Shown here: positions 18,424 through 41,246 of the stretch, piece by piece | Position numbering within the stretch: the stretch's first letter is position 1 | How the letters are laid out: each line of letters begins with the position of its first letter | Assembly: GCA_034431435.1 (NCBI GenBank) | Contig: DAOUDG010000031.1 | Coordinates: forward strand, 3,905-67,904 | Length of the DNA stretch: 64,000 nt | Direction: 5' to 3' | From: Anaerolineae bacterium | GTDB lineage: Bacteria; Chloroflexota; Anaerolineae; Epilineales; JAHCIE01 | Notes under the pieces: generated by a model | What the model saw: only the letters and a program-made list of their open reading frames with translations | Told to the model about the DNA's origin: nothing | Database searches by the model: none | Position numbers and translations under genes: made by a program

Positions 18424-20556
18424 ATGCCCACCATAAGCGATGTCGCGAAACGAGCCGGCGTAGCCCCCATCACCGTCTCGCGCGTTCTCAACGGCGCGGA
18501 GAACGTGAACCCCGCCACGCGGCACAAGGTCGAGCAGGCTATCCAGGACCTGGGGTATCTACCCAACCTGGCCGCCCGCAGCCTGCGCTCCGGCCAGACG
18601 CGCACCCTGGCCCTGCTAGTCCCCGATATCGGCAACCCCTTCTGGCCCATCGTCGCGCGCGGTATCGAAGACGCCGCGCAGAGCGAGGGCTACTCCATCT
18701 TCCTCTGCAACACCGACGAGAATCCCGCCAAGCAGTTGAACTATCTGCGCGCCGTGCTGCAGCAGCGCGTCGATGGCGTCATCCTTGCCCCCTGCGACCC
18801 CGACGCTCAGAGCCTCCAGCCGCTGCGCGAGCAAGGCACGCCCACTGTCATCATCGACCGCCGCGTCGATGGCTGGGATGTGGATTCCGTGGTCGCCGAC
18901 TCGGTGTCTGGCGCTCGCGCCCTGGTCCAGCACCTGCTAAACCTGGGGCATACCCGCATCGCCATCCTGACCGGCCCCCCCGGCGTGAGTACGGCTGAAG
19001 ACCGCGTGATCGGCTATCGGCTGGCGTTGCACGACGCGGGTCTTGAGGTCGATACGCGCCTCATTCGCTGGGGCGAGTATCGCATCGCCTCCGGCTCTCA
19101 GCAGGCTCAGGCCATTTTGGACGAGGGGCTGGCGCCCACCGCCATCTTCACCGCCAACCAGGCCATCGCCCTGGGCGCGCTGGATGCGCTGACGGCGCGT
19201 GGCCTGGACGTGCCACGCGATGTGGCCCTGGTCAGCTTCGACGACCTGCCCGACGTGGATCACCTGTTTCCATTCCTGACCGTCGTGGCGCAGTCGGCCT
19301 ACGACATGGGGCTGAATGCGGCGCAACTGCTGCTGAGCCGCATGAGCGCGGGTGTTGCCCTCGAGCCGCGCCACGTCGTGCTGCCTACGCGCCTGATCCT
19401 GCGCTACTCGTGCGGGCGCACACTCCGCACCAACGAGGCCGAGGGCTACCGTCTGGTGCGCCCGCGAGATGTCCCCGTGCAGTCGGTGCTGGTAAAGCCC
19501 CTGACGCCGGCTGAGCATGAACGAGCCGCCGCCCTGGTGCCCGAAACGGCGTGGTCCGGCCTGGCGCAGCGCAATGCCATGACCGATACGGATCGCTCCA
19601 GCGTCCGCCGCCTGCGTCGCGCGCTGCAACACCAGGCGACAGACCGCGTACCTTGCCTCGCCTACCCCATCGCCCAGCGCGCGCTGGTCGAATCCGTACT
19701 GGGCCGGAGCGCGCCGGCCGCCGTCAACGGCAGCGCGTCGTCGATTGCGCCCGGCGACCAGGTCGAGTTTGCCCAGCGCCTCGGCCTGGATGCGATAGGC
19801 TGCGACCTGACGTCTCACCTCGAGCCAGGCGCGACACGGGCCGATCTGGTCACACCACCGCGCCTGGCGGATCAACTCAGCCGGCTTGAGAACTATCTGC
19901 GCGCGGCACAACGTACCGAAGTGGGCGTTTTCGCCGAGCTTGGCGCGCATCTGCCCTCCGACGCAGGGGAGGCGCTGGCCGGACATGAGTGGCTCGACGT
20001 GGTATTGGCCCACCAGGAGAAGGTACTGCGTGCGGTGTGCGATCGCTTCGCCGCTGACCTCGTCTTTGTCATGCTCGACAGTACCGTCCTGGGACCGCAC
20101 CCACCAAGCATTCACGCCCCCTCTTTCGCCAACGAGATTCTGCCGCGCCTGCGCCGCCTGATTCAGCCGGCGCGCGAACACGGCCTGCCGGTCGGGCTGC
20201 GCGTGCGCGGGCCAATCGACGGCGACCTGGCGGCGGTGAGGGAAGCGGGCTTCGAGGTGCTTGCCCTCAGTGACGCCGACCTCGCGACATTGGCGGCCAT
20301 CAAGCGCACCTGGGGCGACACACTCACTCTGGTGGGCGGCGTGCCCACCGGCCTGCTGGTGACAGGATCGCGTGAGGCCATCGAGGCGCAGGTGCGTGAG
20401 GCCTGCCTGGCTCTGGGCGCTGGCGGCGGCTTCGTGCTCAGCCCATCCGACGGCGTGCCCGAAGCAGCGAGCGCCGACAATTTTGTGGCGCTCGTCCGCG
20501 CCGCGTGGCGCTGGGGGAGAGAGAGCAGCGACTCGGGGGTGGAGATTGGGAACTAG
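18424..20556 (+). CDS. LacI-family transcriptional regulator fused to a C-terminal UroD-like domain
   Basis: Single 710-aa ORF. Residues 1-~330: HTH (ISDVAKRAGVAPITVSRVLNG) plus periplasmic-binding-fold sugar sensor. Residues ~360-710: (beta/alpha)8 UroD/MtaA-like features (TDRVPCL..., ...FVLSPSDGVPE..., C-terminal FVALVRAAW). Confidence 0.7.
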   Translation: MPTISDVAKRAGVAPITVSRVLNGAENVNPATRHKVEQAIQDLGYLPNLAARSLRSGQTRTLALLVPDIGNPFWPIVARGIEDAAQSEGYSIFLCNTDENPAKQLNYLRAVLQQRVDGVILAPCDPDAQSLQPLREQGTPTVIIDRRVDGWDVDSVVADSVSGARALVQHLLNLGHTRIAILTGPPGVSTAEDRVIGYRLALHDAGLEVDTRLIRWGEYRIASGSQQAQAILDEGLAPTAIFTANQAIALGALDALTARGLDVPRDVALVSFDDLPDVDHLFPFLTVVAQSAYDMGLNAAQLLLSRMSAGVALEPRHVVLPTRLILRYSCGRTLRTNEAEGYRLVRPRDVPVQSVLVKPLTPAEHERAAALVPETAWSGLAQRNAMTDTDRSSVRRLRRALQHQATDRVPCLAYPIAQRALVESVLGRSAPAAVNGSASSIAPGDQVEFAQRLGLDAIGCDLTSHLEPGATRADLVTPPRLADQLSRLENYLRAAQRTEVGVFAELGAHLPSDAGEALAGHEWLDVVLAHQEKVLRAVCDRFAADLVFVMLDSTVLGPHPPSIHAPSFANEILPRLRRLIQPAREHGLPVGLRVRGPIDGDLAAVREAGFEVLALSDADLATLAAIKRTWGDTLTLVGGVPTGLLVTGSREAIEAQVREACLALGAGGGFVLSPSDGVPEAASADNFVALVRAAWRWGRESSDSGVEIGN

Positions 20557-20626
20557 CTCAATCTCATTCCCGCTCCCTCGGAACGGGTCAGAGGGTCAGG
20601 GTGGGGGTCTTCGCTCAGGAGGGGCT

Positions 20627-21559
20627 GTGAATTATCGAGCGTTGGGGAACACAGGCCTGGAGGTGTCGGCGCTGAGCTTTGGCGCATCGTCGTTAGGTAG
20701 CGTCTTCCGCGACATCGACGAAGCCGAGGGCATCCGCACTGTCCACGCCGCCATCGACCTGGGCATCAACCTCATCGATGTGTCGCCCTACTACGGTCTG
20801 ACGAAGGCCGAGACAGTGCTGGGCAAGGCGCTGCGCAGCCTACCGCGTGACCGCTACATCGTGGCGACGAAGGTCGGGCGCTACGGCGACGACGACTTCG
20901 ACTTCTCGGCGGCGCGAGTCACAGCCAGCGTTGATGAGAGCCTGGCGCGGTTGGGCAGCGACCATATCGACATCATCCAGTGCCACGATATCGAGTTCGG
21001 CTCGCTGGCCCAGGTGGTGGAGGAAACACTGCCCGCCCTGCGCCGCCTGCAAGAACAGGGCAAAGTGCGCCACGTAGGCGTGACCGGCCTGCCCCTGGGT
21101 ATCTTCACCTACGTCCTGGATCGCACACCCCTGGATACCATCCTGTCCTACTGCCATTATGAGTTGAATGACACCTCCCTGGCCGACATGCTGCCCTATC
21201 TCCAGGCTAAAGGCGTCGGCATCATCAACGCCTCCCCGTTGGGTATGGGGCTACTGACGGAGCGCGGCACGCCCACCTGGCACCCCGCGCCCGACGAGGT
21301 CAAGGCCGCCTGTGCCCAGGCGGCGGCCTACTGCCGGGCGCAGGGTGTCGACATTGCCCGGCTGGCCATCCAGTTTAGCGTCGCCAACCCCGATATCCCC
21401 ACCACGCTGGTGGGCACAGCCAGCCCGGCAAACCTGGAGAAGAACGTCCGCTGGAGCGAAGACCCGATGGACCTGGGCCTGCTGGCCGAGGTGCAGGCCA
21501 TTCTCGCGCCCATCCACAATCGTACCTGGCCCACCGGTCGCCCGGAGAACAACCCATGA
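20627..21559 (+). CDS. Aldo/keto reductase family oxidoreductase (L-galactose/L-fucose-dehydrogenase-like)
   Basis: GTG 20627 with GGAGG 5 nt upstream; start uncertain (the track ORF opens at 20372). AKR motifs ...[18 protein letters not shown]..., IDVSPYYG, catalytic-tetrad context. Confidence 0.75.
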
Positions 21560-23094
21560 AGGAGCCGCCTATGGGGGATGTGCTGGTTTCGATGGTCGGC
21601 ATCGACAAGAGCTTTCCGGGTGTCCACGCCCTGAATCAGTGCCAGTTCGAGATGCGCTCCGGCGAGGTTCACGCTCTCGTGGGCGAGAACGGCGCGGGCA
21701 AGTCGACACTGATGAAGATTCTGGCCGGCATCTATCGCAAGGATGCCGGGACCATCCTCTACAAGGGCAAGGAGGTGGACATCGCCTCGCCCCGTGCCGC
21801 CCAAGACCTGGGCATCAGCATGATTCACCAGGAACTCAACCTGATGAACCATCTGACGGTGGCCCAGAATATCTTTATCGGCCGCGAGCCGCGCCGCCTG
21901 GGTCTGCTGGACGACAAGGCCATCAACGCCCAGGCGCAGACCCTCTTCGAGACGATGCGTCTCAACCTGGACCCGCGCGTCAGGGTCGCCGATCTCACCG
22001 TCGCCAAGCAGCAGATGGTGGAAATCGCCAAGGCGCTGTCCTTCAACTCCGATGTGCTCATCATGGACGAGCCGACGGCCGCGCTCACCGATGTCGAGAT
22101 CGACGACCTGTTCCGCATCATCCGCGACCTGCGGGCGCGGGGCGTCGGCATCGTCCACATCTCCCACCGCCTGGAAGAGTTGAAGCAGATCTCCGACCGG
22201 GTCACTGTCATGCGCGATGGGCGCTACATCGACACCGTGCCAACCCAGGCGACGACGACCGACCAGATTATCAGCATGATGGTCGGCCGCACCATCTTCG
22301 AGGCAACGCCGGAGGTCCCCGAGCATCCCAGCGAGGAGATCGTCCTGGAAGCCCGCCACCTCAACCGTGGCCGCGCCCTCAAGGACGTCAGCTTTAGCCT
22401 CAAGAAGGGTGAGATTCTGGGCTTCGCGGGGCTGGTCGGCGCCGGCCGCACCGAGGTCGCCCGCGCCCTGTTCGGGGCGGACCCACTGGACTCGGGCGAG
22501 ATTCTCATCCACGGCCAGCGCGTCAATATCCACAGTCCGCAAGATGCCGTGCGTCACGGTATCGCCTACCTGTCGGAGGACCGCAAGCGTTATGGCCTCG
22601 CGCTCAAGATGGACGTCGAGACCAATGTGGCCCTGGCGACGATGCGCCAGTTCATGCGGCTGTTGGGCGTCATCGATACAGCCAAGACGCGCTCGACGGC
22701 CCAGCACTACGTGGATGCTCTCGCCATCAAGACGCCCAGCATCCAGCAAAAGGTAGCCAACCTGTCAGGCGGCAACCAGCAGAAGGTGATCATCGGCAAG
22801 TGGCTGACCGCCGACACCGAGATTCTAATCTTCGACGAGCCGACGCGCGGCATCGATGTCGGCGCCAAGAGCGAAATCTACCGCCTGCTAAACGACCTGG
22901 CCCAGCAGGGCAAGTCCATCATCATGATCTCGTCGGAGTTGCCTGAGATTCTGCGCATGAGCCACCGCATCATCGTGATGTGCGAGGGACGCATCACCGG
23001 CGAGCTTGCCAGCGCCGAAGCCACCCAAGAGAGCATCATGCGCTTCGCTACCCAGCGCGCCCCCGTCGCGGCCAACGAGCCAGCCACCGCCTAG
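21556..23094 (+). CDS. Sugar ABC transporter ATP-binding protein, CUT2 family (tandem ATPase domains)
   Basis: 512 aa with two Walker A/B sets ([12 protein letters not shown] ... second domain [16 protein letters not shown]); RbsA/MglA/RhaT-like. Confidence 0.9.
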
Positions 23095-23117
23095 TAGCCA
23101 AGGGAGACCCACCACCT

Positions 23118-24113
23118 ATGCAAGCTCAAGCGCCCGCCGTTCAATCCAAGTCGCTGTTCCGCTCGGACGCTATGCAACGCCTTCTGGCCTTCGGCGCGCT
23201 CATCGTGCTGTTCATCGTCTTCTCACTGTTGTCGCCCAACTTCCTCCAGTTCGACAACATCGTCGGTATCCTGCTGGCGACCTCGGTCAACGGCATCCTC
23301 GCCCTGGGCGTGACTTTCGTCATCATCAGCGGCGGCATCGACCTGTCGGTGGGCACGGTCATGACGCTATCGGCGGTCATGACCGGCGTCTTCATCACCA
23401 TGTGGGGATTGCCCATCCCCCTAGGCATCCTGGCCGGGCTGGGCACGGGCGCGTTGTGCGGCCTCGTCAACGGTACGGTCATCTCGCGCATGAAGATCCC
23501 GCCCTTCATCGCCACGCTGGGCATGTTCTACATCTCGCGCGGCCTGGCGCTCATCTTCTCCGGGCTGAAGCCCGTCTACTTCAACGACACGCCCATCTTC
23601 CGCGACCTCGCCATGGGTTCGGTGCTGGGTGCGATCGTCCCCGGCTTCGATATCCCCAACGCCGTGCTCATCATGTTCGGCGCGGCCCTGGTCGCTGCGT
23701 TCATCTTGAACCGCACCGTGTTGGGCCGCTACACCTTCGCCATCGGCAGCAATGAGGAAGCCACCCGCCTGTCGGGCGTCAACGTCGCCTTCTGGAAGAC
23801 GTCCATCTACGCCCTGTGTAGCGCGTTCGCGGGCCTGGGCGGCGTCGTCATCGCCTCGCGCCTCAACTCCGCTCAGCCATCCCTCGGCGCGGGCTACGAG
23901 TTGGACGCCATCGCCGCCGCCGTCATCGGCGGCACGTCGCTGAGCGGTGGTGAGGGAACAATCCTGGGTACGGTTATCGGCGCGTTCCTCATCAGCACCC
24001 TCACCAATGGCCTGCGCATCCTGTCGGTGCCCCAGGAATGGCAGATTGTCGTGACAGGCTGTATCCTGATCCTGGCCGTCTTCCTGGACATCCTCCGCCG
24101 CCGGCAGCGCTGA
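23118..24113 (+). CDS. Sugar ABC transporter permease, CUT2 family (RbsC-like)
   Basis: ATG 23118 after AGGGAG. ~10 TM; motif GGIDLSVGTVM. Confidence 0.85.
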   Translation: MQAQAPAVQSKSLFRSDAMQRLLAFGALIVLFIVFSLLSPNFLQFDNIVGILLATSVNGILALGVTFVIISGGIDLSVGTVMTLSAVMTGVFITMWGLPIPLGILAGLGTGALCGLVNGTVISRMKIPPFIATLGMFYISRGLALIFSGLKPVYFNDTPIFRDLAMGSVLGAIVPGFDIPNAVLIMFGAALVAAFILNRTVLGRYTFAIGSNEEATRLSGVNVAFWKTSIYALCSAFAGLGGVVIASRLNSAQPSLGAGYELDAIAAAVIGGTSLSGGEGTILGTVIGAFLISTLTNGLRILSVPQEWQIVVTGCILILAVFLDILRRRQR

Positions 24114-24207
24114 GCCTGGCGGGGCAGCCTTCCCACGTTTGTTAGCTCCATCGTGGAGCTTGACAATGTCCTCACCACTAGAACGAAGAGGAGAAAGGAC
24201 GCTCGGT

Positions 24208-25251
24208 ATGAAATCCCTAAGATTCGTTGTCGTTCTTGCCAGCCTGGTGGCCATCCTGGCCCTACTGGCGGCATGCACGCCAACACAGCAAGCCGCGGTC
24301 GAGAAGGCCGCGCCCACCGTCGCCGCCGCTGCCAAGGCCGCCGCGCCCACTGTGGCCGCCGCCGCTGCCGCCAAGACCGGCGACATGTACATCCCGGTCA
24401 TCTCGAAGGGCTTCCAGCACCAATTCTGGCAGGCGGTGAAGCAAGGCTCGGAGAAGGCGGCTAAGGACCTCGGCGTCCGCATCACCTTCGAAGGCCCAGA
24501 GAACGAGTCCCAGGTCGACAAGCAGATTGAGATGCTCCAGGCGGCCATCGACAAGAAGCCCGCCGCCATCTGCTTCGCCGCGCTGGACTCCAAGGCCGCC
24601 ATCCCGCTGTTGGAGAAGGCCAAGGCCGCCAACATTCCGGTGATCGGCTTCGACTCCGGCGTCGATAGCGACATCGTCAAGACGACGGCCGCCACGGACA
24701 ACATCGCCGCCGCCGCCGCCGCCGCCGACAAGATGGCCGCGCTGATCAATAACGAGGGCGAGATCGCGGTCATCGTCCACGACCAGACCAGCCGCACCGG
24801 CATCGACCGCCGCGACGGCTTCGTCAACCGCATCAAGGAGAAGTACCCCAACATCAAGATCGTCGACATCCAGTACGGCGGCGGCGACCAGCTCAAGTCT
24901 ACCGACCTGGCCAAGGCGATTCTCCAGGCCCGCCCCAACCTCAAGGGCTTCTTTGGCGCGAACGAGGGGTCCATCATCGGTGTCCTCAATGCCGTCAAGG
25001 AACTGAAGAGGGAAGGCAAGGTCGTGGTCATTGGCTACGACTCTGGCAAGCAGCAGATCGACGCCATCAAGGCAGGGACTGAGGCCGGCGCCATCACCCA
25101 GGACCCGATCGGCATCGGCTACAAGTGCGTCGAGGCCGCTGTCAAGGCCGTCAAGGGCGAAACACTGCCCAAGACCATCGACACTGGCTTCCACTGGTAC
25201 GACAAGACCAACGTCGACTCCGACCAGATCAAGCCACTGCTGTACAACTAG
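24208..25251 (+). CDS. Sugar ABC transporter substrate-binding lipoprotein, CUT2 family
   Basis: ATG 24208 after GAGGAGAAAGG. Lipobox LLAAC, Ala/Pro-rich linker, periplasmic-binding-protein type I fold (IGFDSG, VVVIGYDSG). Confidence 0.85.
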   Translation: MKSLRFVVVLASLVAILALLAACTPTQQAAVEKAAPTVAAAAKAAAPTVAAAAAAKTGDMYIPVISKGFQHQFWQAVKQGSEKAAKDLGVRITFEGPENESQVDKQIEMLQAAIDKKPAAICFAALDSKAAIPLLEKAKAANIPVIGFDSGVDSDIVKTTAATDNIAAAAAAADKMAALINNEGEIAVIVHDQTSRTGIDRRDGFVNRIKEKYPNIKIVDIQYGGGDQLKSTDLAKAILQARPNLKGFFGANEGSIIGVLNAVKELKREGKVVVIGYDSGKQQIDAIKAGTEAGAITQDPIGIGYKCVEAAVKAVKGETLPKTIDTGFHWYDKTNVDSDQIKPLLYN

Positions 25252-25338
25252 CGGGCGTCGCCCAGCCCGACAGGCGAAAGAGGGGCTGGCCACTCTGGAC
25301 AGCCTCTCTTCCCTGGCGGGGAGTAAGGAGACTCGCGG

Positions 25339-26172
25339 GTGCGCATCGACTCCCATCAGCATTTCTGGCGCTATAATCGAACCGAATATGACTGGATGCG
25401 TGACGCTCTGGCGAACCTGCAACGCGATTTCCTGCCGCCCGACCTGGCGCCTCTCCTGACCGCCACGGCTCTCGACGGTACGGTTGCTGTACAGGCCAGG
25501 CAAACCCTGGCCGAGACAGAGTGGTTGCTGGACCTATCGGATCGCTTCGACTTCATCAAGGGTGTTGTCGGCTGGGTCGACCTACGCTCGCCCCACGTCG
25601 ACGCGCAACTCGACCAGGTAGCGCGCCACCCCAAGCTGCGAGGAATACGCCACGTCGTCCACGACGAGCCAGACGACCGCTTCATGCTCGGCGCTGATTT
25701 CCTGGCCGGCCTCAACCAGTTGCGGGGCCTGGGACTGACCTACGATCTGCTATTGTTTCCCAGGCATCTGCCCATCGCCGTGGAAGTGGTGCGCCGCTTT
25801 CCCCACCAGCGTTTTGTGTTGGATCACATCGCCAAGCCGCCCATCAAGGACCACCGCATCGGCGCGTGGGAAAATGACTTGCGGGAACTGGCGGGCTTCG
25901 ACAACGTATTCTGCAAGGTGTCAGGCATGGTCACCGAGGCCGACTGGCAGCACTGGCAGCCGAGCGACTTCGAGCCGTACCTGGACATTGTATTCGATGC
26001 CTTTGGCGTCGAGCGGCTGATGTTTGGCTCTGACTGGCCCGTCTGCACGATCGCCGCCGACTATGAGCAGGTCGTTGGCCTGGTGGACAGCTACGTGGCT
26101 CGCCGCGCGCCCCACGCCCGCGATGCAATTTTCGGCGGCACAGCGGCGGCGGTCTATGGGTTGACCGAGTGA
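25339..26172 (+). CDS. Amidohydrolase_2 family metal-dependent hydrolase (L-fucono/L-rhamnono-1,5-lactonase-like)
   Basis: MRIDSHQHFW N-terminus, ...FVLDHIAKP..., ...MFGSDWP... typical of amidohydrolase_2 lactonases. Confidence 0.7.
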   Translation: MRIDSHQHFWRYNRTEYDWMRDALANLQRDFLPPDLAPLLTATALDGTVAVQARQTLAETEWLLDLSDRFDFIKGVVGWVDLRSPHVDAQLDQVARHPKLRGIRHVVHDEPDDRFMLGADFLAGLNQLRGLGLTYDLLLFPRHLPIAVEVVRRFPHQRFVLDHIAKPPIKDHRIGAWENDLRELAGFDNVFCKVSGMVTEADWQHWQPSDFEPYLDIVFDAFGVERLMFGSDWPVCTIAADYEQVVGLVDSYVARRAPHARDAIFGGTAAAVYGLTE

Positions 26173-26179
26173 GGATGCC

Positions 26180-29283: not shown

Positions 29284-29363
29284 GGGCGTGAGGCGCGAGC
29301 TGCCTCGGCGGCCTCGCGTTTCACATGCTGGCGCGGCGTCCGCATTCCATTCTCGGCGGCCCT

Positions 29364-30909: not shown

Positions 30910-30988
30910 CCCAGGGCAAGGGGCCAGCGACCAACCGGGACGAGCCTGACTACTCGCCTTTGGTCACTCGCCCGCGAAGGGAGACCGT

Positions 30989-34071: not shown

Positions 34072-34086
34072 TGAGGTAACACATCC

Positions 34087-34887
34087 ATGATGCTTCCAGA
34101 TAGAGTCGCCATTGTCACCGGCGGCGCGCAGGGGTTGGGCGAAGCCCTCTGCCAGCGCCTGGCCCGCGAGGGCTGCCACGTTGTCGTGGCCGACATCAAC
34201 GCCGAGCAGGCCGCCGCCACTGCCGACGGCATTACCACCGCCGCGCGCGCCACCGGCTCCGACCGCCGCGCCATTGGCGTCAAGGTCGACGTCACGAGTG
34301 AAGAGCAGGTCGCCGCCCTGGTCGACCGCGCCGTCGCCGAGTTTGGCCGTCTCGATGTGCTGGTGTCCAATGCGGGCATCCTCATCGCCGAGGACATTAC
34401 CGACTTCCCCGCCGACAAGTGGCAGGCCGTGATGATGGTCAATCTCTACGGCTACTTCCTGTGTGCCAAGCACGCCGCGCGGGTGATGAAGCCGCAAGGT
34501 AAGGGCGTCATCATCCAGATCAACTCCAAGTCGGGCAAGAAGGGCAGCTTCAAGAACTCCGCCTACGCGGCCTCCAAGTTCGGCGGCATCGGCCTCACCC
34601 AGAGCATCGCCCTCGACCTGGCCGAGCATGGCGTGCGCGTCAACGCTGTCTGCCCCGGCAACCTGCTCGACTCGCCCTTGTGGGTCAACTCGCTTTACAA
34701 GCAGTATGCCCGGAAGTGGGGCATCACCGAGGCCGAGGTACGCCAGCGCTACATCGACCAGGTTCCCATGAAGCGCGGCTGCACCTACGACGACGTCTGC
34801 AATGTGGTCGCCTTCCTGGCCTCCGACCAGGCCAGCTACATGACCGGCCAGGCCATCAACGTGACCGGCGGCCAGGAGATGCGCTAA
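34087..34887 (+). CDS. Short-chain dehydrogenase, sorbitol-6-phosphate 2-dehydrogenase (SrlD)-like
   Basis: 266 aa; [67 protein letters not shown]. Close motif-by-motif resemblance to SrlD. Confidence 0.8.
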
Positions 34888-34897
34888 GCGAGACCGT

Positions 34898-36217
34898 ATG
34901 CCAATCGCTGTCATTCTGCCCAAGCTGGGCAACACCGTCGAGAGTTCCATTATCGCCCGCTGGCTCAAGCGACCCGGCGAGACCGTCGCCGAAGGCGAGC
35001 CACTGGTGGAGATCGAGACCGACAAGAGCAGCCTTGAGGTAAACAGCCCCGCCGCGGGCGTCCTCCTCGACACGTTCTTCGGCCCAGGCGACGACGTGCC
35101 CGTGCTGACCACCATCGCCGCCATCGGCCAGCCGGGCGAGGAGGCGGCTTCCCTTCGCCCGCGTGACGCGGCGACACCCGCCACCCCTGCCCCCCCTCCG
35201 GCTCCCCCCGTCGACCATGGGAAGGGGGAGGAGGGAATCAGTGAGGTCTTCGTCTCGCCACGCGCGCGGCGGCTGGCCGAGCACAAGGGGCTGGCCGTGG
35301 CGGACCTGACGGGTAGCGGCCCCGGCGGGCGCATCATCGAGCGCGACGTGCAGGCCGCCCTCGCCGCCCGACCGCGTCTGACGCCCCTGGCGCGCGCCCT
35401 GGTCGAGAAGGGCGGCTTCACCCCGCCCGCCGACGCCGCCGGCCGCGTCACCAGCCGCGACCTTACGCCACCCACCGCGACGGCCTCCGCGCCTGGCATA
35501 GCCGGGCCAACCCAGGCCGTCGCCGAGTACGAAGATATACCGCTCAGCAACGTGCGCCGCCTCATCGCCGAGCGCATGCTGGCCTCCTTGCAGACCACGG
35601 CCCAGCTGACCCTCAACGCCTCGGCCGACGCCCGCCAGGTGCAGGCCCTCCGCCAGCGGCTCAAGGCCAGCCCCGAGGCCCTCGGCCTGCGCGAGGTGAC
35701 GGTCAACGATCTGGTGCTGTTCGCCGTCAGCCGCACCTTGACCCGCTTCCCCGACCTCAACGCCCTCTTCCTGGACAAGAGTCTGCGCCGCTTCACGCCG
35801 GTTCACCTCGGCTTCGCTGTGGACACGCCGCGCGGCCTGCTCGTACCCGTCATCCGTCATGCCGACAGCCTCAGCCTGCGCGCCCTGTCCCAGGCGGCGC
35901 GGCGGCTGGCCCAGGCGGCGCAAGACGGCAAGGCCACCCCCGACGACCTCAGCGGCGGCACGTTCACCGTGACCAACCTGGGCAGCCTCGGCATCGAGAG
36001 CTTCACGCCGGTGCTCAACCCGCCCCAGGTCGCCATCCTCGGCGTGGGATCCATTCAATTGAAGCCCGTCGACGCCGACGGCGAGGTGCAGTTCATCCCA
36101 CACCTGGGCCTGTCCCTGACCATCAACCACCAGGTTGTAGACGGCGCGCCGGGCGCGCGCTTCCTGCACGCCGTGACCCAGGCCATAGCCAGCCTGGACT
36201 TGCTATTGGCGACGTGA
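34898..36217 (+). CDS. 2-oxoacid/acetoin dehydrogenase complex E2 (dihydrolipoamide acyltransferase), single lipoyl domain
   Basis: Lipoyl motif [13 protein letters not shown]3/E1-binding domain ([32 protein letters not shown]), catalytic domain ending ...[15 protein letters not shown]. Confidence 0.85.
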
Positions 36218-36283
36218 TACGCGGGTGGTCACATGGCCGCCCGCGACCCCGATTGGCCCGTCGATCATTGCCCCAGAGGAACT

Positions 36284-38734
36284 ATGCCCAAGACCCTACT
36301 CATTGATCCCGTGGAAGTACGTCGACCTGGCGTCATCGTCGCCCCCAACATCCCCATCAACCAGTACACGCCCGACCCCCAGGCCGAGGCGAAGACCTAC
36401 GGCCGCGACGCCCTGGTGCGCATCTACCGCGACATGGTACTCATTCGCGAGTTCGAGACCATGCTCGACCGCATCAAGAAAGAGGGCGTCTACGAGGGCA
36501 TCGAGTACAGCCACAAAGGCCCCGCCCACCTGTCCATCGGCCAGGAAGCCGCCGCCGTTGGCCAGGCCTTCCATCTCACTCGCGACGACTTCATCTTCGG
36601 TTCGCATCGCAGCCACGGCGAGATTCTCGCCAAGAGCTTCTCGGCCATCGCCGGGCTAGCCGAGGCTGAGCTGACCGCCATCATGGAGAGCTACCTGGAT
36701 GGCGCGCCGCTGCGCGTCGTCGAGACCTACAGCCGCGCCGACGCGCCGAGCCTGGCCCTCGATTATGTCCTGTACGGCACGCTGGCCGAGATCTTCGGCC
36801 GCGCCGCCGGCTTCAACCAGGGCCTGGGCGGGTCGATGCACGCCTTCTTCCCTCCCTTCGGCGTCCTACCCAACAACGCCATCGTCGGCGGCTCGGCCGA
36901 TATTGCGACTGGCTCGGCCCTCTACAAGCGCGTCAACCGCAAGCCCGGCATCGTCATCGCCAACATCGGCGACGCCAGCATGGGCTGCGGGCCGGTTTGG
37001 GAAGCGATGATGTTCGCCGCCATGGACCAGTATCGCACGCTGTGGGATGCGGAGATCGGCGGCGCGCCGCCCATCCTGTTCAACTTCATGAATAACTTCT
37101 ACGGCATGGGCGGTCAGCCGAAAGGCGAGACCATGGGCTTCGACGTGCTGGCCCGCGTCGGGTTGGGCGTCAACCCGGAGGGTATGCACGCCGAGCGCGT
37201 CGACGGCTTCAACCCGCTGGCCGTGGCCGACGCCATCGCCCGCAAGCGACCGGTCCTCGAAGGCGGGCGCGGCCCTGTGTTGCTGGATGTGGTAACCTAT
37301 CGCTTCTCCGGTCACTCGCCGTCGGACGCCTCCAGCTACCGCGACAAGGCCGAGATGGACCTGTGGCAGGGCGTCGACTCCCTGGTGACCTACCGCCAGT
37401 ACCTGCTGGACAACGGCCACGCCGACGCGGCCGCCCTCGACGCCATTCGCGCCGACGCCGTGGCCCGCATCAGCCAGGCCCTGCGCGCCGCCGCCGACCT
37501 GGAGCGCTCGCCGCGCCTCAGCGAGGAGGCCATCGCGGCCGTCATGTTCTCGAACGAGTTGAAGGATCGCATCGCTGAGGGCACGCCGGAGGTGCGGCTG
37601 GCGAAGGCTGACAGCCGCCTGGCCGTCACAGAGGGCAAGTTCCGCTTCGCCTTCGACGCTCAGGGCCAGCCCCACCCCAGGCTCAAGACGCTGACCTACG
37701 CCGAGGCCCTGTTCGAGGCGATGATGCACCGCTTCTACGCCGATCCTACGATGGTGGCCTACGGCGAGGAGAACCGCGACTGGGGAGGCGCGTTCGGCGT
37801 GTATCGCGGGCTGACGGAGTGCCTACCCTACCACCGCCTGTTCAACTCGCCCATCTCCGAGGGGGCCATCGTGGGCACGGCGGTAGGCTACGCCCTCAGC
37901 GGCGGGCGCGTCGTGGCCGAGCTGATGTACGCCGACTTCATGGGGCGCGCAGGCGACGAGATCTTCAACCAGATGGCGAAGTGGCAGGCCATGTCGGCCG
38001 GGCTGCTGGCATTGCCCCTGGTGCTACGTATCTCGGTGGGCGCCAAATATGGCGCGCAGCACTCCCAGGACTGGTCAGCGCTGGTGGCCCATGTGCCCGG
38101 CCTGCGGGTCATGTATCCGGCCACGCCCTACGACGCCAAGGGCATGCTGAACCTGGCCTTGCGGGGAACGGACCCGGTGGTGTTCTTCGAGAGCCAGCGC
38201 CTCTATCCGGAGCCGGAGAGGCTGGTTCAGGGCGGCGTGCCTGTGGACTACTACGAAGTTCCCCTCGGCGAGCCAGTGGTACGCCGCGAGGGCGGCGACC
38301 TGACGCTCATCACCCTCGGCCCGGCCCTCTACATCGCGCTGGAAGCGGCCGACGAGTTGGCGAAGCATGGCGTCGCGGCCGAGGTTATCGACCTGCGCTT
38401 CCTGAACCCACTGAACTACGAACCCCTAGTCCAGTCGATCCGCAAGACGGGCAAGGCGGCGCTGGTATCGGAGGCGTGCGAGCGCGGCTCGTTCATGCAC
38501 ACCGTCGCCTCCAATCTAACGCAGCTGGCCTTCGACTACCTGGACGGCCCCATCGCGGTGGTCGGAGCGCGCAACTGGATCACGCCCGCCGCTGAGATAG
38601 AGGACCTGTTCTTCCCCCAGAAAGAGTGGATTGTGGACACTGTCCACGAACGAGTGCTGCCCCTGGCGGGCTACACGCCCCTCACACGCCAGGCCACGTC
38701 TGAGATCATCACTCGCAACCGCGCGGGGATTTAG
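36284..38734 (+). CDS. Fused E1 alpha-beta component of a TPP-dependent 2-oxoacid/acetoin dehydrogenase complex
   Basis: ATG 36284 after AGAGGA (the track ORF opens at 36233). N-terminal E1-alpha TPP-binding region ([17 protein letters not shown]) and C-terminal E1-beta transketolase-like Pyr and C-terminal domains in one 816-aa polypeptide. Confidence 0.85.
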
Positions 38735-38820
38735 GTTGGTAGCCACGCAGGGCAGGGCCTCGCCCCTGCCCTCTTGACGGAAGAATGGGACACGGACGAA
38801 CACACAATGAGGTGGAACTC

Positions 38821-40494
38821 GTGAGCCAAACCAAATATGCCCTGGGACTGGACTTTGGTACCGAGTCGGGGCGCGCGGTTGTCGTCGACGTCGGCAGCGG
38901 CAAGACCGTCGGCAGCGCCACCTACCGCTACGCCGATGGCGTCATCGACGAGAAGCTGCCGGGCACGAGCACCCGCCTCGGCCCCGATTGGGCCTTACAG
39001 AACCCCGCCGACTACCTGGCGACCCTCAAGCAGGCCGTGCCCGAGGCCCTCACGGCGGCGGGCGTGCCGGCCGAAGACGTGATTGGCATCGGCATCGACT
39101 TCACCGCCTGCACCATCCTGCCGACGCGGGCCGACGGCACGCCACTGTGCTTCGAGCCGGAGTGGAAGGGTAACCCCCACGCCTGGACCAAACTGTGGAA
39201 ACATCATGCCGCCCAACCCGAGGCTGACCGCATCAATGCCGTGGCCGTGGAGCGGGACGAGGCGTGGCTACCCCTATACGGTGGGCGCATCTCGTCCGAG
39301 TGGCTGCACAGCAAGGCGTTACAGATCCTCGACGAGTCGCCCGATGTCTACGCAGCGATGGACAGAATCGTCGAGGCGGGTGACTGGGTCGTCTGGCAGA
39401 TGACCGGCGTAGAGAAGCGCAATGCCTGCGCCGCTGGCTACAAGGGCATGTGGAACAAAGCCACCGGCTACCCCAGCAATGACTTCCTGCGCGCCCTCGA
39501 CCCGCGCCTCGACGGCTTCCATCAGACGAAGGCGGCGGGCGAGGTGGTCGCCCCGGGCGCGCGGGTGGGCCACCTGACCGAGAAGGCGGCGGCGTGGATG
39601 GGCCTGCGGCCCGGCATCGCCGTCGCCGCACCGACCATCGACGCCCACGCCGCCGTACCGGGCGCGGGCGTGACAACGCCAGGCCGCATGACCCTCATCC
39701 TGGGCACGTCCACCTGCCACATGATCGTGGACGAGGAACAGCATCTGGTGCCCGGCATCAGCGGCGTCGTCGGCGACGGCATCATCCCCGGCCTGTATGG
39801 CTACGAGGGCGGACAGGCCGGGGTGGGCGACATCTTCGAGTGGTTCGTGGAGAATGCGGTACCGAGCTGGTATGAGCGGGGTGCGGCGGAGGCAGGGCTG
39901 AGTGTCTACCAGGCCCTGGAGCGCGACGCCGCCCAACAGCGGCCAGGCGAAGCGGGCCTCATCGCCCTCGACTGGTGGAACGGCAACCGCTCGGTGTTGG
40001 TCAACGCCGGGTTGAGCGGCCTGCTCATCGGCATGACCCTCGGCACGCGCCCACCCGACATCTACCGCGCCCTGATCGAAGCGACCGCCTTCGGGACCAA
40101 GATTATCGTCGACACCTTCGAGCAGCACGGCGTGCGCGTCGATGAGCTGGTGGCGTGCGGCGGCCTGGCCGAGCGCAACAAGCTACTCTTGCAGATTTAC
40201 GCCGACGTGACCGGCCGCGAGTTCGTGGTCGGCGGCACGGGCCAGGCGTCGGCCCTCGGCGCGGCCATGCTCGGCGCGCTGGCGGCAGGACGAGCGGCGG
40301 GCGGCTTCGACTCGCTGACCGACGCAGCCCGGTCGATGGTCGCCAGCACCGGCGAGACCTACCGGCCCCACGCGGCGAACCACAGGGTCTACCAGAGCCT
40401 CTTCGCCGACTATCAGCGCCTGCACGACACCTTTGGGCGCGGCGCGAACGACGTCATGCTGCGCCTGCGCGAGATGCGCCACCAGGAGATGTAG
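38821..40494 (+). CDS. FGGY-family kinase, ribulokinase (AraB)-like
   Basis: GTG 38821 with GAGGTGG 7 nt upstream (alternative ATG 38785). ALGLDFGTES, GIDFTACT, SSEW...KALQIL, LGTSTC, GYEGGQAGVGDIFEWF, LDWWNGNRS, CGGLAERNKLLLQIYADVTGRE. Confidence 0.8.
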   Translation: MSQTKYALGLDFGTESGRAVVVDVGSGKTVGSATYRYADGVIDEKLPGTSTRLGPDWALQNPADYLATLKQAVPEALTAAGVPAEDVIGIGIDFTACTILPTRADGTPLCFEPEWKGNPHAWTKLWKHHAAQPEADRINAVAVERDEAWLPLYGGRISSEWLHSKALQILDESPDVYAAMDRIVEAGDWVVWQMTGVEKRNACAAGYKGMWNKATGYPSNDFLRALDPRLDGFHQTKAAGEVVAPGARVGHLTEKAAAWMGLRPGIAVAAPTIDAHAAVPGAGVTTPGRMTLILGTSTCHMIVDEEQHLVPGISGVVGDGIIPGLYGYEGGQAGVGDIFEWFVENAVPSWYERGAAEAGLSVYQALERDAAQQRPGEAGLIALDWWNGNRSVLVNAGLSGLLIGMTLGTRPPDIYRALIEATAFGTKIIVDTFEQHGVRVDELVACGGLAERNKLLLQIYADVTGREFVVGGTGQASALGAAMLGALAAGRAAGGFDSLTDAARSMVASTGETYRPHAANHRVYQSLFADYQRLHDTFGRGANDVMLRLREMRHQEM

Positions 40495-41236: not shown

Positions 41237-41246
41237 ACAGACCCCC

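What the first reader, a model, noticed from the sequence alone, without database searches (positions are those of the whole stretch)
18424..40494. 22-kb single-strand 6-deoxyhexose-type catabolic island that lacks a class II aldolase and instead carries redox enzymes and a TPP E1ab/E2 pair
Seen: regulator, AKR, CUT2 ABC transporter (the family used for rhamnose uptake in rhizobia), amidohydrolase_2 lactonase-like protein, LarA-like protein, bona fide L-fucose isomerase, rhamnulokinase-like kinase, PHP phosphoesterase, enlarged Zn-ADH, SrlD-like SDR, E2, fused E1 alpha-beta and an AraB-like kinase are all co-directional with short or overlapping junctions (ATGA overlaps at 27472, 32332, 10115-style couplings). 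Established pathways: the phosphorylative fucose/rhamnose routes need FucA/RhaD/RhaE aldolase after the kinase. The non-phosphorylative routes need an enolase-superfamily dehydratase after the lactonase. Neither is recognisable here. Inference: the ketose-1-phosphate may instead be oxidised at the 6-deoxy end by the SrlD-like and MDR polyol-phosphate-type dehydrogenases to a methyl alpha-ketol (acetoin-like CH3-CO-CHOH-R), then cleaved thiamine-dependently by the acetoin-dehydrogenase-like E1ab/E2 to acetyl-CoA plus a phosphorylated C4 fragment. PHP, AraB-like kinase and the convergent rpiA/pgl/pgi genes would handle the remainder. This would be an undescribed aldolase-independent, acetyl-CoA-yielding deoxy-sugar pathway. 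It could alternatively be two or three adjacent ordinary operons.
Basis: inference. Interest (0 to 1): 0.8.

Follow-up and report, generated by a model that had tools for sequence, protein, structure and literature searches.

The report
Aldolase-free fucose operon with thiamine enzyme
A Chloroflexota bacterium carries a conserved L-fucose utilisation operon that has no sugar-splitting aldolase and instead has sorbose-pathway-like reductases, an odd PHP-fold protein and a thiamine/lipoyl E1-E2 pair, which points to an undescribed way of breaking down 6-deoxy sugars.

Summary
The gene list is real: 15 co-directional genes, gaps of -4 to 135 nt, from an Anaerolineae contig. One correction is that the regulator is a genuine LacI-URO-D fusion.

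No class II aldolase or dehydratase is recognisable in the island. An Aldolase_II HMM found no Aldolase_II ORF in the 64-kb window.

Comparative genomics shows a conserved functional unit. It comprises a PHP-fold protein, a SorE/YggP-like Zn-dehydrogenase, an SrlD-like SDR and a fused E1αβ with E2. The unit recurs next to FucI or rhamnose isomerase genes in 65%-GC Chloroflexota. It also recurs, with E2-E1αβ embedded mid-operon, in an unrelated 35%-GC lineage. This argues against adjacent unrelated operons.

A RhaE-like class II aldolase gene accompanies the same module in most rhamnose-type loci, but in none of nine fucose-type loci. Aldolase independence is therefore plausible for fucose, not proven.

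Best model (inferred, about 0.45):
- Fuculose-1-P undergoes sorbose-like carbonyl transposition to a 1-deoxy-ketohexose-6-P.
- E1/E2 cleave this, acetoin-dehydrogenase-style, to acetyl-CoA plus a tetrose-4-P.

Main rival: the aldolase is encoded elsewhere and the module converts lactaldehyde to acetyl-CoA.

The lactonase, LarA-like gene and rpiA/pgl/pgi are not conserved parts. No description was found in the searchable literature.

The parts
18424..20556 (+). LacI-family repressor fused to a URO-D/MtaA-like TIM-barrel domain (710 aa)
   Evidence: Pfam LacI plus Peripla_BP at aa 1-330 and URO-D at aa 563-694. There is no stop codon between the two parts. The identical 710-aa product is called on at least 24 independent contigs. 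In L026 the LacI homologue has no URO-D part.
20627..21559 (+). Aldo/keto reductase (310 aa). Conserved in the fucose-type loci of this lineage; role unknown.
   Evidence: Pfam Aldo_ket_red 172 bits. Start GTG 20627 follows an AGGAGG motif. 79% identical in L026, and an AKR follows FucI in L017.
21556..25251 (+). CUT2 sugar ABC transporter: ATPase (21556-23094), permease (23118-24113), RhaS-like binding protein (24208-25251)
   Evidence: Pfam ABC_tran x2, BPD_transp_2, Peripla_BP_4. TIGR02637 RhaS 130 bits, below the cutoff of 342. 75-86% identical in L026.
25339..26172 (+). Amidohydrolase_2, L-fucono-1,5-lactonase-like. Accessory, not conserved.
   Evidence: NF052480 288 bits, cutoff 400. Present only in the window lineage (L002). 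Replaced by the FucU mutarotase in L026.
26180..27475 (+). LarA-like protein (nickel-pincer racemase/epimerase family). Accessory, not conserved.
   Evidence: Pfam Lar_N 78 bits. NF052594 'putative hexonate epimerase' 174 bits, cutoff 500. Absent from L026.
27472..29283 (+). L-fucose isomerase FucI
   Evidence: NF008220 1073 bits (cutoff 775) and TIGR01089 1045 bits (cutoff 850).
29419..30909 (+). Rhamnulokinase-like FGGY kinase (presumed L-fuculose 1-kinase)
   Evidence: TIGR02627 492 bits against a cutoff of 528; it is the best hit. Recurs in PHP-MDR-SDR loci.
30989..32335 (+). 448-aa PHP-fold protein with a partly degenerate metal site. Core of the conserved module; function unknown (proposed epimerase/isomerase on a sugar phosphate).
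32332..34071 (+). 579-aa Zn-dependent polyol-dehydrogenase-type MDR with a duplicated Rossmann domain, SorE/YggP-like (proposed ketose-1-phosphate reductase)
   Evidence: Pfam ADH_N. Catalytic-Zn motifs C67, G95-H96-E97 and E177 are invariant. Nearest annotated relatives are YggP and SorE (L-sorbose-1-P reductase) at 26-29% over 92% of the query. Both aa 195-324 and aa 338-480 align to one Rossmann domain of the 421-aa orthologue. 4-nt overlap with the PHP gene.
34087..34887 (+). SrlD-like short-chain dehydrogenase (proposed 1-deoxy-hexitol-6-phosphate 2-dehydrogenase)
   Evidence: NF009050 sorbitol-6-P dehydrogenase 389 bits, cutoff 307. Best PDB hit is SrlD 5o3z at 262 bits; the next best is 156 bits. 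71-85% identical across Chloroflexota loci.
34898..36217 (+). E2 dihydrolipoyl acyltransferase (lipoyl, E3-binding and catalytic domains)
   Evidence: Pfam Biotin_lipoyl, E3_binding, 2-oxoacid_dh. All equivalog scores are below cutoff.
36284..38734 (+). Fused thiamine-diphosphate E1 alpha-beta (816 aa) with a divergent alpha half
   Evidence: Pfam E1_dh 136 bits, Transket_pyr, Transketolase_C. PDH E1 models are below cutoff: 180 against 394 and 242 against 321. 74-76% identical across Chloroflexota classes. Embedded in deoxyhexose operons of a second lineage. Rhizobium and Agrobacterium homologues pair with an AcoC-type partner.
38821..40494 (+). AraB-type ribulokinase (557 aa); a pentulokinase that travels with E1ab
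   Evidence: NF003154 710 bits, cutoff 428. 84% identical and in the same position in L026. XylB-like kinases occupy this position after E1ab in 9 other loci.
40520..43642 (-). Convergent rpiA, pgl and pgi. Neighbours, not part of the conserved unit.
   Evidence: Pfam Rib_5-P_isom_A, Glucosamine_iso, PGI. Kept only in the 93%-identical L036. L026 has a helicase gene here.

Best explanation
The island is an L-fucose (possibly also D-arabinose) utilisation operon. Its conserved core is FucI, a ketose 1-kinase, a PHP-fold protein, a SorE-like Zn-dehydrogenase, an SrlD-like SDR and a fused E1 alpha-beta with E2. This core replaces the fuculose-1-phosphate aldolase step.

Proposed route (every step after the kinase is inferred):
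1. L-fucose is isomerised to L-fuculose by FucI.
2. The kinase makes L-fuculose-1-P.
3. The PHP-fold metalloenzyme changes the configuration. I propose 3-epimerisation to 6-deoxy-L-sorbose-1-P.
4. The SorE-like MDR reduces C2 to give 1-deoxy-D-glucitol-6-P.
5. The SrlD-like SDR oxidises the carbon next to the methyl group to give 1-deoxy-D-fructose-6-P, a methyl alpha-ketol.
6. E1ab/E2, with a lipoamide dehydrogenase encoded elsewhere, cleave it as acetoin dehydrogenase cleaves acetoin. The products are acetyl-CoA and D-erythrose-4-P. Without the epimerisation the C4 product would be D-threose-4-P or L-erythrose-4-P.

Steps 4 and 5 mirror the L-sorbose pathway, where SorE then SorD/SrlD convert sorbose-1-P to fructose-6-P. 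In rhamnose-type versions the RhaE-like Aldolase_II protein could act as an AraD-like C4 epimerase (rhamnulose-1-P to fuculose-1-P) or provide a parallel aldolase branch.
For: - Gene identities.
- Whole-cluster synteny at 63-86% identity in L026.
- PHP-MDR-SDR is found in nearly all of 28 PHP-anchored Chloroflexota loci, next to FucI or RhaA/rhaM.
- E1ab/E2 lie within 10 kb in about 12 of 29 loci, and two different fused-E1 subtypes are recruited.
- An independent 35%-GC lineage has rhaM-AldoII-RhaB-E2-E1ab-PHP-SDR-MDR-RhaI (L078). It also has the minimal FucI-E2-E1ab-PHP-SDR-MDR-PfkB (L109), with proteins only 25-65% identical to the window's.
- 0 of 9 FucI-type loci have Aldolase_II, and the 64-kb window has none.
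- The MDR's nearest annotated relatives are SorE/YggP.
- A Deinococcus plasmid has SDR, enlarged MDR and FGGY kinase as a trio.
- The SDR is SrlD-like, more than 100 bits above any other solved SDR.
- E1ab fails the PDH equivalog cutoffs.
- E1ab elsewhere travels with sugar kinases, HAD phosphatases and DeoR/SorC sugar-phosphate regulators.
- In Rhizobium and Agrobacterium, E1ab pairs with an acetoin-dehydrogenase-type (AcoC-like) partner.
- The stereochemical fit to the sorbose pathway and to erythrose-4-P rests on established carbohydrate chemistry and is my own inference.
Against: - No biochemical data exist for any step.
- A RhaE-like class II aldolase gene is adjacent to the same module in at least 16 rhamnose-type loci, including loci with E1ab-E2. 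That fits a lactaldehyde-processing role better unless the protein is an epimerase.
- The window covers only 64 kb of the genome, so a FucA elsewhere is not excluded.
- E1ab/E2 are missing within 10 kb of the module in over half of the Chloroflexota loci.
- The E1ab of this type is very conserved (74-76% across classes). It also occurs with no PHP/MDR/SDR nearby (L033-L035), as a housekeeping enzyme might.
- The 680-aa E1ab subtype is close to canonical PDH E1.
- The PHP role is a guess. Distant family members sit in unrelated contexts.
- The roles of the AKR and of AraB are unexplained.
Confidence: 0.45

Rival explanations
1. Conventional phosphorylative pathway with the aldolase encoded elsewhere (adjacent, as RhaE, in rhamnose loci). 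The module handles L-lactaldehyde. The SDR would act like RhaW as a lactaldehyde dehydrogenase giving lactate. A second dehydrogenase would give pyruvate. E1ab/E2 would be a dedicated pyruvate dehydrogenase giving acetyl-CoA.
For: - RhaE-like Aldolase_II lies immediately upstream of PHP or the kinase in many rhamnose-type loci, including those with E1ab-E2.
- RhaW, the SDR half of RhaEW, is a proven lactaldehyde dehydrogenase distantly related to SrlD (PMC3870299).
- The SDR matches the RhaEW model at 192 bits.
- The 680-aa E1ab subtype nearly reaches the PDH cutoffs.
- L016 has one aldolase for a combined fucose and rhamnose locus.
Against: - 0 of 9 fucose-type loci carry any Aldolase_II, including the self-contained L109 operon.
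- The SDR scores 389 bits on SrlD against 192 on RhaEW, no better than on generic SDR models.
- The MDR's nearest annotated relatives are ketose-1-P reductases, and no MDR lactate dehydrogenase is known (own knowledge).
- The most conserved member, PHP, has no role.
- Mannitol-1-P-dehydrogenase-like and DUF89 phosphatase genes inside several modules point to hexitol phosphates.
- The window-type E1ab fails the PDH cutoffs.
Confidence: 0.25
2. Juxtaposition of separate ordinary operons: fucose uptake and isomerase-kinase, a sorbose/polyol-phosphate module, a housekeeping 2-oxoacid or acetoin dehydrogenase, and araB. There would be no shared pathway.
For: - E2-E1ab occur as a stand-alone pair, with or without DeoR, HAD and XylB-like genes, in many loci without PHP/MDR/SDR.
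- The lactonase, LarA-like gene and rpiA/pgl/pgi are indeed non-conserved neighbours.
Against: - Gaps are 10-15 nt between MDR, SDR, E2 and E1ab. No terminator or promoter signal exceeds chance.
- The same order is kept in L026.
- E2-E1ab are embedded between the kinase and PHP in a 35%-GC lineage.
- Two E1 subtypes are independently linked to the module.
- A rough expectation for a chance neighbour within 10 kb is a few per cent, against about 40% observed (my estimate).
Confidence: 0.08
3. The same unit works with different chemistry. One option is that E1ab attacks a ketose phosphate that still carries its C1 oxygen, giving glycolyl-CoA, or acetyl-CoA after phosphate elimination in a phosphoketolase-like way. 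Another is that PHP acts as a true phosphatase and the pentulokinase re-phosphorylates an intermediate.
For: - PHP fold.
- HAD or DUF89 phosphatases and a second kinase recur beside E1ab.
- The Rhizobium cluster has only an epimerase, a kinase, E1ab and an AcoC-like partner, with no MDR or SDR.
Against: - This leaves the universally co-conserved SorE-like and SrlD-like dehydrogenases without an obvious task.
- The third-metal ligands typical of PHP phosphoesterases are lost: the Asp in both lineages, the His in lineage 1 only.
- There is no precedent for the reaction (own knowledge).
Confidence: 0.12

Closest known systems
L-sorbose catabolism: SorE (L-sorbose-1-P reductase, MDR) plus SorD/SrlD (glucitol-6-P dehydrogenase, SDR)
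   Same: The same two enzyme families are adjacent to each other and follow a ketose 1-phosphorylating step. SorE/YggP are the MDR's nearest annotated relatives. The SDR passes the SrlD equivalog cutoff. The logic is to move the carbonyl from C2 to C5 through a hexitol phosphate.
   Different: The substrate here would be a 6-deoxy sugar, so the product is a 1-deoxy-ketose-6-P that cannot enter glycolysis. The MDR is only 26-29% identical to SorE and carries a duplicated Rossmann domain. Phosphorylation is by a kinase, not a PTS. A PHP-fold protein and E1/E2 are added.
Acetoin dehydrogenase enzyme system (AcoA/AcoB/AcoC/AcoL)
   Same: A TPP E1 alpha/beta plus a lipoyl E2 that would cleave a CH3-CO-CHOH-R ketol to acetyl-CoA and an aldehyde without decarboxylation. 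Homologues of this E1ab in Rhizobium and Agrobacterium are followed by a split AcoC-type partner (NF011457).
   Different: E1 is a single fused 816-aa chain with a divergent alpha half. No E3 gene is in the cluster. The E2 here is of the 2-oxoacid_dh type (AcoC model 72.6 bits, cutoff 307). The proposed substrate is a sugar phosphate, which has never been shown for this family.
Canonical phosphorylative fucose and rhamnose pathways (FucI-FucK-FucA; RhaA-RhaB-RhaD; RhaEW of Chloroflexus and Bacillus)
   Same: Transporter, mutarotase (in relatives), isomerase and ketose 1-kinase are the same. Rhamnose-type relatives carry a RhaE-like Aldolase_II gene.
   Different: No FucA/RhaD/RhaE is present in the island, the window or any fucose-type relative. 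No lactaldehyde reductase or aldehyde dehydrogenase of the usual families is present. Five extra conserved proteins are.
PHP-family phosphoesterases of the TrpH/RNase AM and 3',5'-nucleoside-bisphosphate phosphatase type
   Different: 17-18% identity and no Pfam hit. The Asp of 'SDG' and, in this lineage, the His of 'DHD' are replaced. The terminal D-x-H becomes [E/D]-x-N. It is always encoded among sugar-phosphate enzymes.
Thiamine-dependent, aldolase-free sugar cleavage: fructose-6-P phosphoketolase and the sulfoquinovose transketolase (sulfo-TK) pathway
   Same: The C2-C3 bond of a ketose phosphate is broken on TPP to give a C2 unit plus erythrose-4-P or an analogue. The sulfo-TK route also deals with a 6-deoxy-type sugar without an aldolase (PMC11659671, listed; own knowledge).
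   Different: Those enzymes are transketolase or phosphoketolase family proteins without lipoyl transfer. Here an E1/E2 of the 2-oxoacid-dehydrogenase type would oxidise the C2 unit to acetyl-CoA.

Membership tests
Phosphorylative L-fucose pathway (FucI-FucK-FucA) | L-fucose isomerase | tested here: met
   NF008220 1073 bits against a cutoff of 775.
Phosphorylative L-fucose pathway (FucI-FucK-FucA) | L-fuculose-1-phosphate aldolase (class II, Aldolase_II) | tested here: not met
   No Aldolase_II among the island products. An Aldolase_II HMM gives no hit at E <= 10 in 563 window ORFs. 0 of 9 FucI-type loci have one. The rest of the genome was not visible.
Non-phosphorylative fucose/rhamnose pathway | Aldonate dehydratase (enolase superfamily or IlvD/EDD) after the lactonase | tested here: not met
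   No such Pfam or NCBIfam hit among the island products. Only a lactonase-like protein (288 bits, cutoff 400) and an AKR are present, and both the lactonase and the LarA-like gene are absent from L026.
L-sorbose pathway enzymes | SrlD/SorD-type hexitol-6-phosphate 2-dehydrogenase | tested here: met
   NF009050 389 bits against a cutoff of 307. PDB 5o3z 262 bits, next best 156. The substrate was not testable.
L-sorbose pathway enzymes | SorE-type ketose-1-phosphate reductase (Zn MDR) | tested here: inconclusive
   The nearest annotated relatives are SorE/YggP, but at only 26-29% identity. The catalytic Zn motifs are conserved. No NCBIfam model for SorE scored.
Pyruvate dehydrogenase complex | E1 alpha, E1 beta and E2 reaching the curated PDH family scores | tested here: not met
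   TIGR03182 180 against 394. NF006667 242 against 321. NF008814 (E2) 278 against 722.
Acetoin dehydrogenase enzyme system | TPP E1 alpha/beta plus a lipoyl-bearing acetyltransferase | tested here: met
   E1_dh, Transket_pyr, Transketolase_C, Biotin_lipoyl and 2-oxoacid_dh domains. These domains are shared with all 2-oxoacid dehydrogenases, so the result is not specific.
Acetoin dehydrogenase enzyme system | Cleavage of a methyl alpha-ketol without CO2 release; AcoC-type E2; E3 (AcoL) in the cluster | not testable with these tools
   The activity cannot be tested. The AcoC model scores 72.6 bits against a cutoff of 307 for this E2. No E3 gene is in the island. An AcoC-type partner is seen only with the Rhizobium and Agrobacterium homologues.
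PHP phosphoesterase family (PF02811) | PHP fold | tested here: met
PHP phosphoesterase family (PF02811) | Full set of trinuclear metal ligands and a score above the Pfam threshold | tested here: not met
   No Pfam hit. The 'SDG' Asp and the 'DHD' His are replaced. The lineage-2 orthologue keeps the His and passes Pfam at 34 bits.
Ribulokinase AraB | Equivalog-level score | tested here: met
   NF003154 710 bits against 428. TIGR01234 677 bits against 583.
Rhamnulokinase RhaB | Equivalog-level score | tested here: inconclusive
   TIGR02627 492 bits against 528. It is the best hit, just under the cutoff.

The most novel reading that the evidence does not exclude
A third, aldolase-independent route for L-fucose, and through an Aldolase_II-type epimerase also L-rhamnose. 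The ketose-1-phosphate is carbonyl-transposed by a PHP-fold epimerase, a SorE-like reductase and an SrlD-like dehydrogenase into 1-deoxy-D-fructose-6-phosphate. A 2-oxoacid-dehydrogenase-type E1/E2 complex then cleaves this sugar phosphate to acetyl-CoA and erythrose-4-phosphate. This would be the first sugar-phosphate substrate for that enzyme family and a new catalytic role for the PHP fold. All six carbons would be recovered, with no lactaldehyde or propanediol formed.
Probability: 0.4. Interest if true: 0.9.

Novelty: new variant of a known kind. Interest (0 to 1): 0.74.

Why it matters
Fucose and rhamnose are major sugars of mucins, algal and plant polysaccharides and bacterial envelopes. 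Only two types of bacterial route are known for them: aldolase-based phosphorylative and dehydratase-based oxidative.

A route yielding acetyl-CoA plus a pentose-phosphate-pathway intermediate would have three consequences.
- It would change carbon and redox budgets, because no 1,2-propanediol would be formed.
- It would change how Chloroflexota, abundant in sludge, sediments and soils, are annotated. Currently they would appear to have an 'incomplete fucose pathway'.
- It would extend the substrate range of E1/E2 thiamine-lipoyl complexes from 2-oxo acids and acetoin to sugar phosphates.

It would also give functions to three large families now annotated only generically or as hypothetical:
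- the 448-aa PHP-like protein, with 845 clusters at 50% identity;
- the enlarged MDR;
- the 816-aa fused E1.

The E1 family has homologues in tractable Rhizobium and Agrobacterium.

Tried and rejected
1. AF2 model of the 579-aa MDR. Mean pLDDT was only 60 with my 34-sequence alignment, so I ran no fold search on it. The domain duplication was shown by BLASTP instead.
2. A Foldseek search against AFDB50, to find cultured carriers of the PHP protein, was not possible because the library was unavailable.
3. The sigma-70 promoter and terminator scan inside the island gave counts at or below the shuffled expectation. It is uninformative for Chloroflexota.
4. Nine literature searches were run. Terms included 1-deoxy-fructose-6-P, 6-deoxysorbose, fucitol/rhamnitol phosphate, acetoin dehydrogenase with fuculose/rhamnulose, and sorbose-1-P reductase with fucose. 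None found a description of this cluster or pathway. The rhamnose regulon paper (PMC3870299) does not mention these genes in the passages searched.
5. The idea that aldolase and E1/E2 are mutually exclusive alternatives is rejected. L007, L012 and the whole 35%-GC rhamnose lineage have both.
6. The idea that PHP448 is a classical phosphatase is considered unlikely because of the ligand losses. It is not excluded.
7. The idea that the lactonase, LarA-like gene and rpiA/pgl/pgi belong to the pathway is rejected for lack of conservation.
8. The idea that the SDR is a RhaW orthologue is rejected. It scores about 200 bits higher on SrlD.
9. The pRL8 transcriptomics paper says nothing on the Rhizobium E1ab cluster.
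10. Distant PHP448 relatives (31-36% identity) lie in unrelated contexts, so they do not help to assign a function.

Full report
**Source and anatomy**

The window is part of a 151,574-bp metagenome contig (JGI 3300006092, Ga0082021_1128387). The contig comes from an Anaerolineae-type Chloroflexota bacterium with about 66% GC.

Between 18424 and 40494 there are 15 co-directional genes. The junctions are -4 to 135 nt, and three are ATGA overlaps, at 21556, 27472 and 32332.
- LacI regulator and AKR;
- a CUT2 ABC transporter with ATPase, one permease and a RhaS-like binding protein;
- an Amidohydro_2 fuconolactonase-like protein (288 bits, cutoff 400) and a LarA-like protein;
- a bona fide L-fucose isomerase (1073 bits, cutoff 775);
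- a rhamnulokinase-like kinase (492 bits, cutoff 528);
- a 448-aa protein and a 579-aa Zn-ADH;
- an SrlD-like SDR (389 bits, cutoff 307);
- an E2, a fused E1 alpha-beta (real length 816 aa) and an AraB ribulokinase (710 bits, cutoff 428).

None of these products hits an aldolase or an enolase-superfamily family. I built an Aldolase_II HMM from 13 proteins of related loci plus one Litorilinea homologue. It finds nothing in 563 six-frame ORFs of the whole 64-kb window.

There are three corrections.
- The regulator is a real LacI-URO-D-like fusion. The identical 710-aa product is called on at least 24 independent contigs.
- The enlarged ADH contains a duplicated Rossmann domain.

**Is it one system?**

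I anchored on the 448-aa protein and fetched 25 genome loci, all from Chloroflexota. I added several metagenome and NCBI loci and mapped the island's proteins on them.

The trio PHP-MDR-SDR is present in nearly all loci. It is usually contiguous and sits in deoxyhexose contexts:
- FucI, with or without the FucU mutarotase: window, L001-L003, L016-L018, L026;
- L-rhamnose isomerase RhaA, with or without rhaM and a DeoR regulator: L004, L005, L016, L019, L021, L030-L032.

One Anaerolineae genome (L026) keeps the entire order LacI-AKR-ABC-FucU-FucI-kinase-PHP-MDR-SDR-E2-E1ab-AraB at 63-86% identity. There, FucU replaces the lactonase and the LarA-like gene, and a helicase gene replaces rpiA/pgl/pgi. 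Those genes are therefore accessory or mere neighbours.

A fused E1ab plus E2 lies within 10 kb in about 12 of 29 loci. Two different subtypes are involved. One is the 816-aa type of the window. The other is a 680-aa type close to canonical PDH E1.

**The reciprocal test**

I then anchored on E1ab and fetched 80 metagenome loci. This gave two recurrent contexts.

1. A small operon: DeoR-(HAD-IIA)-E2-E1ab-(XylB-like kinase). Litorilinea aerophila has XylB-like-HAD-E2-E1ab.
2. Deoxyhexose operons of a lineage with only about 35% GC, in which E2-E1ab are embedded in mid-operon.
   - L078 reads SBP-ABC-perm-perm-rhaM-RhaE-like Aldolase_II-RhaB-E2-E1ab-PHP-SDR-MDR-RhaI. Its RhaI scores 641 bits against a cutoff of 531.
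   - L109 reads FucI-E2-E1ab-PHP-SDR-MDR-PfkB kinase.

The lineage-2 proteins are only 25-29% (PHP, MDR), 44% (SDR) and 63-65% (E1ab) identical to the window's. Conservation of the set at this distance, with a different gene order, argues strongly against the reading 'two or three adjacent ordinary operons'.

**The aldolase question**

A 255-270-aa Aldolase_II protein resembling the RhaE half of RhaEW (73-91 bits on the RhaEW models) is present in at least 16 rhamnose-type loci. It often lies directly upstream of PHP or the kinase. Some of these loci also carry E1ab-E2 (L007, L012, L064-L089). The module is therefore not an exclusive alternative to an aldolase-family protein.

However, none of the nine FucI-anchored loci has one. 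Four of these (window, L017, L026, L109) have full 10-kb flanks. The combined fucose and rhamnose locus L016 has a single copy, next to RhaA.

Each canonical pathway needs its own aldolase, and the same five proteins are conserved in both operon types. The simplest reading is that the five proteins act on the ketose-1-phosphate itself. The Aldolase_II protein would then be specific to rhamnose. Rhamnulose-1-P and fuculose-1-P are C4 epimers, and the family includes the AraD 4-epimerase, so an epimerase role is chemically reasonable. This last point is my inference and remains untested.

**What the proteins look like**

MDR579:
- It keeps the catalytic-zinc motifs of polyol dehydrogenases: C67, G95-H96-E97, E177.
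- In a tblastn search of annotated plasmid-collection records, its nearest annotated relatives are E. coli YggP and SorE L-sorbose-1-phosphate reductases of Citrobacter, Serratia and Klebsiella. Identity is 26-29% over about 92% of the query.
- A 38%-identical enlarged MDR in Deinococcus sp. AJ005 lies between an SDR and an FGGY kinase.

The SDR matches the solved SrlD (5o3z) at 262 bits, against 156 bits for the next solved SDR.

E1ab:
- It fails every PDH, BCKDH and OGDH equivalog cutoff, and its alpha half is divergent.
- The alpha half is 49-53% identical to fused E1 genes on Rhizobium johnstonii pRL8 and Agrobacterium pAt15955.
- In both of those, a split acetoin-dehydrogenase-type AcoC partner (lipoyl protein plus alpha/beta hydrolase; 62.7 and 152.9 bits on NF011457) and a SorC regulator follow it.
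- In the Rhizobium cluster a PfkB kinase also follows, and a psicose-3-epimerase-like gene, a CUT2 transporter and a FucU-like gene lie beside it.

PHP448:
- It keeps HxH and the Glu.
- It has lost the Asp of 'SDG' and, in this lineage, the His of 'DHD'. These are ligands of the third metal in PHP phosphoesterases.
- Five arginines are conserved across both lineages.

**Best-supported mechanism**

The identities are shown. The steps are inferred.
1. FucI and the kinase make L-fuculose-1-P.
2. The PHP-fold enzyme alters its configuration. I propose 3-epimerisation to 6-deoxy-L-sorbose-1-P.
3. The SorE-like MDR reduces C2.
4. The SrlD-like SDR oxidises the carbon next to the methyl group.
5. The result is a redox-neutral carbonyl transposition to 1-deoxy-D-fructose-6-P, exactly parallel to L-sorbose-1-P going through glucitol-6-P to fructose-6-P.
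6. The product is a methyl alpha-ketol, like acetoin or DXP. E1ab/E2 can cleave it to acetyl-CoA and erythrose-4-P.

I give it about 0.45.

**Rivals**

- Main rival, about 0.25: the aldolase is encoded elsewhere, and the module turns L-lactaldehyde into pyruvate and then acetyl-CoA. The SDR would act like RhaW (PMC3870299) and E1ab/E2 like PDH.
  - It explains the RhaE-like genes and the PDH-like 680-aa E1 subtype.
  - It does not explain the aldolase-free fucose operons, the SorE and SrlD affinities, the PHP protein, or the mannitol-1-P-dehydrogenase-like and DUF89 phosphatase genes found inside several modules.
- Other chemistry by the same unit: about 0.12.
- Mere juxtaposition: about 0.08.

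The pentulokinase after E1ab (AraB-like here, XylB-like elsewhere) travels with E1ab. It may serve D-arabinose through D-ribulose, or a 1-deoxy-pentulose. Its role is open, as is that of the AKR.

**Novelty**

Nine full-text searches found no description of this cluster or of 1-deoxy-ketohexose phosphates as catabolic intermediates. The PHP448 family has 845 clusters at 50% identity. More than 8000 proteins matched E1ab in the homology search.

I rate the finding as a new variant of a known kind, a deoxyhexose catabolic operon. There is a substantial chance that it encodes a new route and a new substrate class for E1/E2 complexes.

The decisive tests are:
- whole-genome aldolase searches in carriers of the operon;
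- in vitro reconstitution from fuculose-1-P;
- an E1ab/E2 assay with CO2 detection;
- position-specific 13C tracing.

Noticed in passing
window 18424-20556 (+): The LacI-family repressor is fused in frame, through a linker of about 50 aa, to a URO-D/MtaA-like TIM-barrel domain. The identical 710-aa product is called on at least 24 contigs from independent assemblies, so the fusion is real. Stand-alone URO-D-like genes flank rhaM in rhamnose-type loci (L032, L019, L004). The domain's role is unknown; it could be a sensor or a demethylase for O-methyl-deoxyhexoses.
   Followed up: partly
L117 (Rhizobium johnstonii 3841 pRL8, RL_RS25565 and neighbours); L118 (Agrobacterium pAt15955): In both records a fused E1 alpha-beta, 49-53% identical in its alpha half to the window's, is followed by a lipoyl protein, an alpha/beta hydrolase (together a split AcoC-type acetoin-dehydrogenase E2) and a SorC regulator. 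The Rhizobium cluster also has a PfkB kinase and lies next to a psicose-3-epimerase-like gene, a CUT2 transporter and a FucU-like gene. This looks like an uncharacterised sugar-linked thiamine/lipoyl system in tractable organisms.
   Followed up: partly
L033, L034, L038, L039, L042, L044, L047, L052 and others: A recurrent small operon, DeoR-(HAD-IIA phosphatase)-E2-fused E1ab-(XylB-like kinase), occurs in Chloroflexota, including the cultured Litorilinea aerophila. This context suggests a phosphorylated ketose, possibly a 1-deoxy-pentulose phosphate, as the E1 substrate.
   Followed up: partly
window 32332-34071 (+): The enlarged MDR arose by tandem duplication of its Rossmann domain. Residues about 195-330 and 338-480 both align to the single domain of the 421-aa orthologue. 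The glycine motif of the first copy is not conserved across the family.
   Followed up: yes
L032 14700-17048; L007, L010, L014, L025, L030: Mannitol-1-phosphate-5-dehydrogenase-like genes and DUF89/ARMT1 'damage-control phosphatase' genes (fused in L032) sit between the MDR and the SDR in several rhamnose-type modules. A second MDR paralogue of 592-608 aa follows in L005, L031 and L032.
   Followed up: partly
L116 (Deinococcus sp. AJ005 plasmid p380k, 315288-318511): An SDR, an enlarged MDR (38% identical to MDR579), an FGGY kinase and a GntR regulator occur together without PHP or E1/E2. This may be a non-deoxy version of the kinase/reductase/dehydrogenase trio.
   Followed up: no
window 56747-59991 (+): An AAA+ ATPase, a phosphoribulokinase-family kinase and a 343-aa ORF without a Pfam hit lie in a row. 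They were not examined further.
   Followed up: no
window 4860-5648 (+) and 45625-46410 (-): Two Bestrophin-like domain proteins lie on either side of the island region. A DMSO-reductase-family molybdoenzyme (14504-16915, -) and a DUF6544 protein (17380-18240) lie directly upstream.
   Followed up: no
L123/L124 and L125/L126: Distant relatives of the 448-aa PHP-like protein (31-36% identity) occur in other contexts: between ileS and signal-peptidase genes, or as PHP-HAD-PfkB. The family is therefore broader than deoxyhexose operons.
   Followed up: partly
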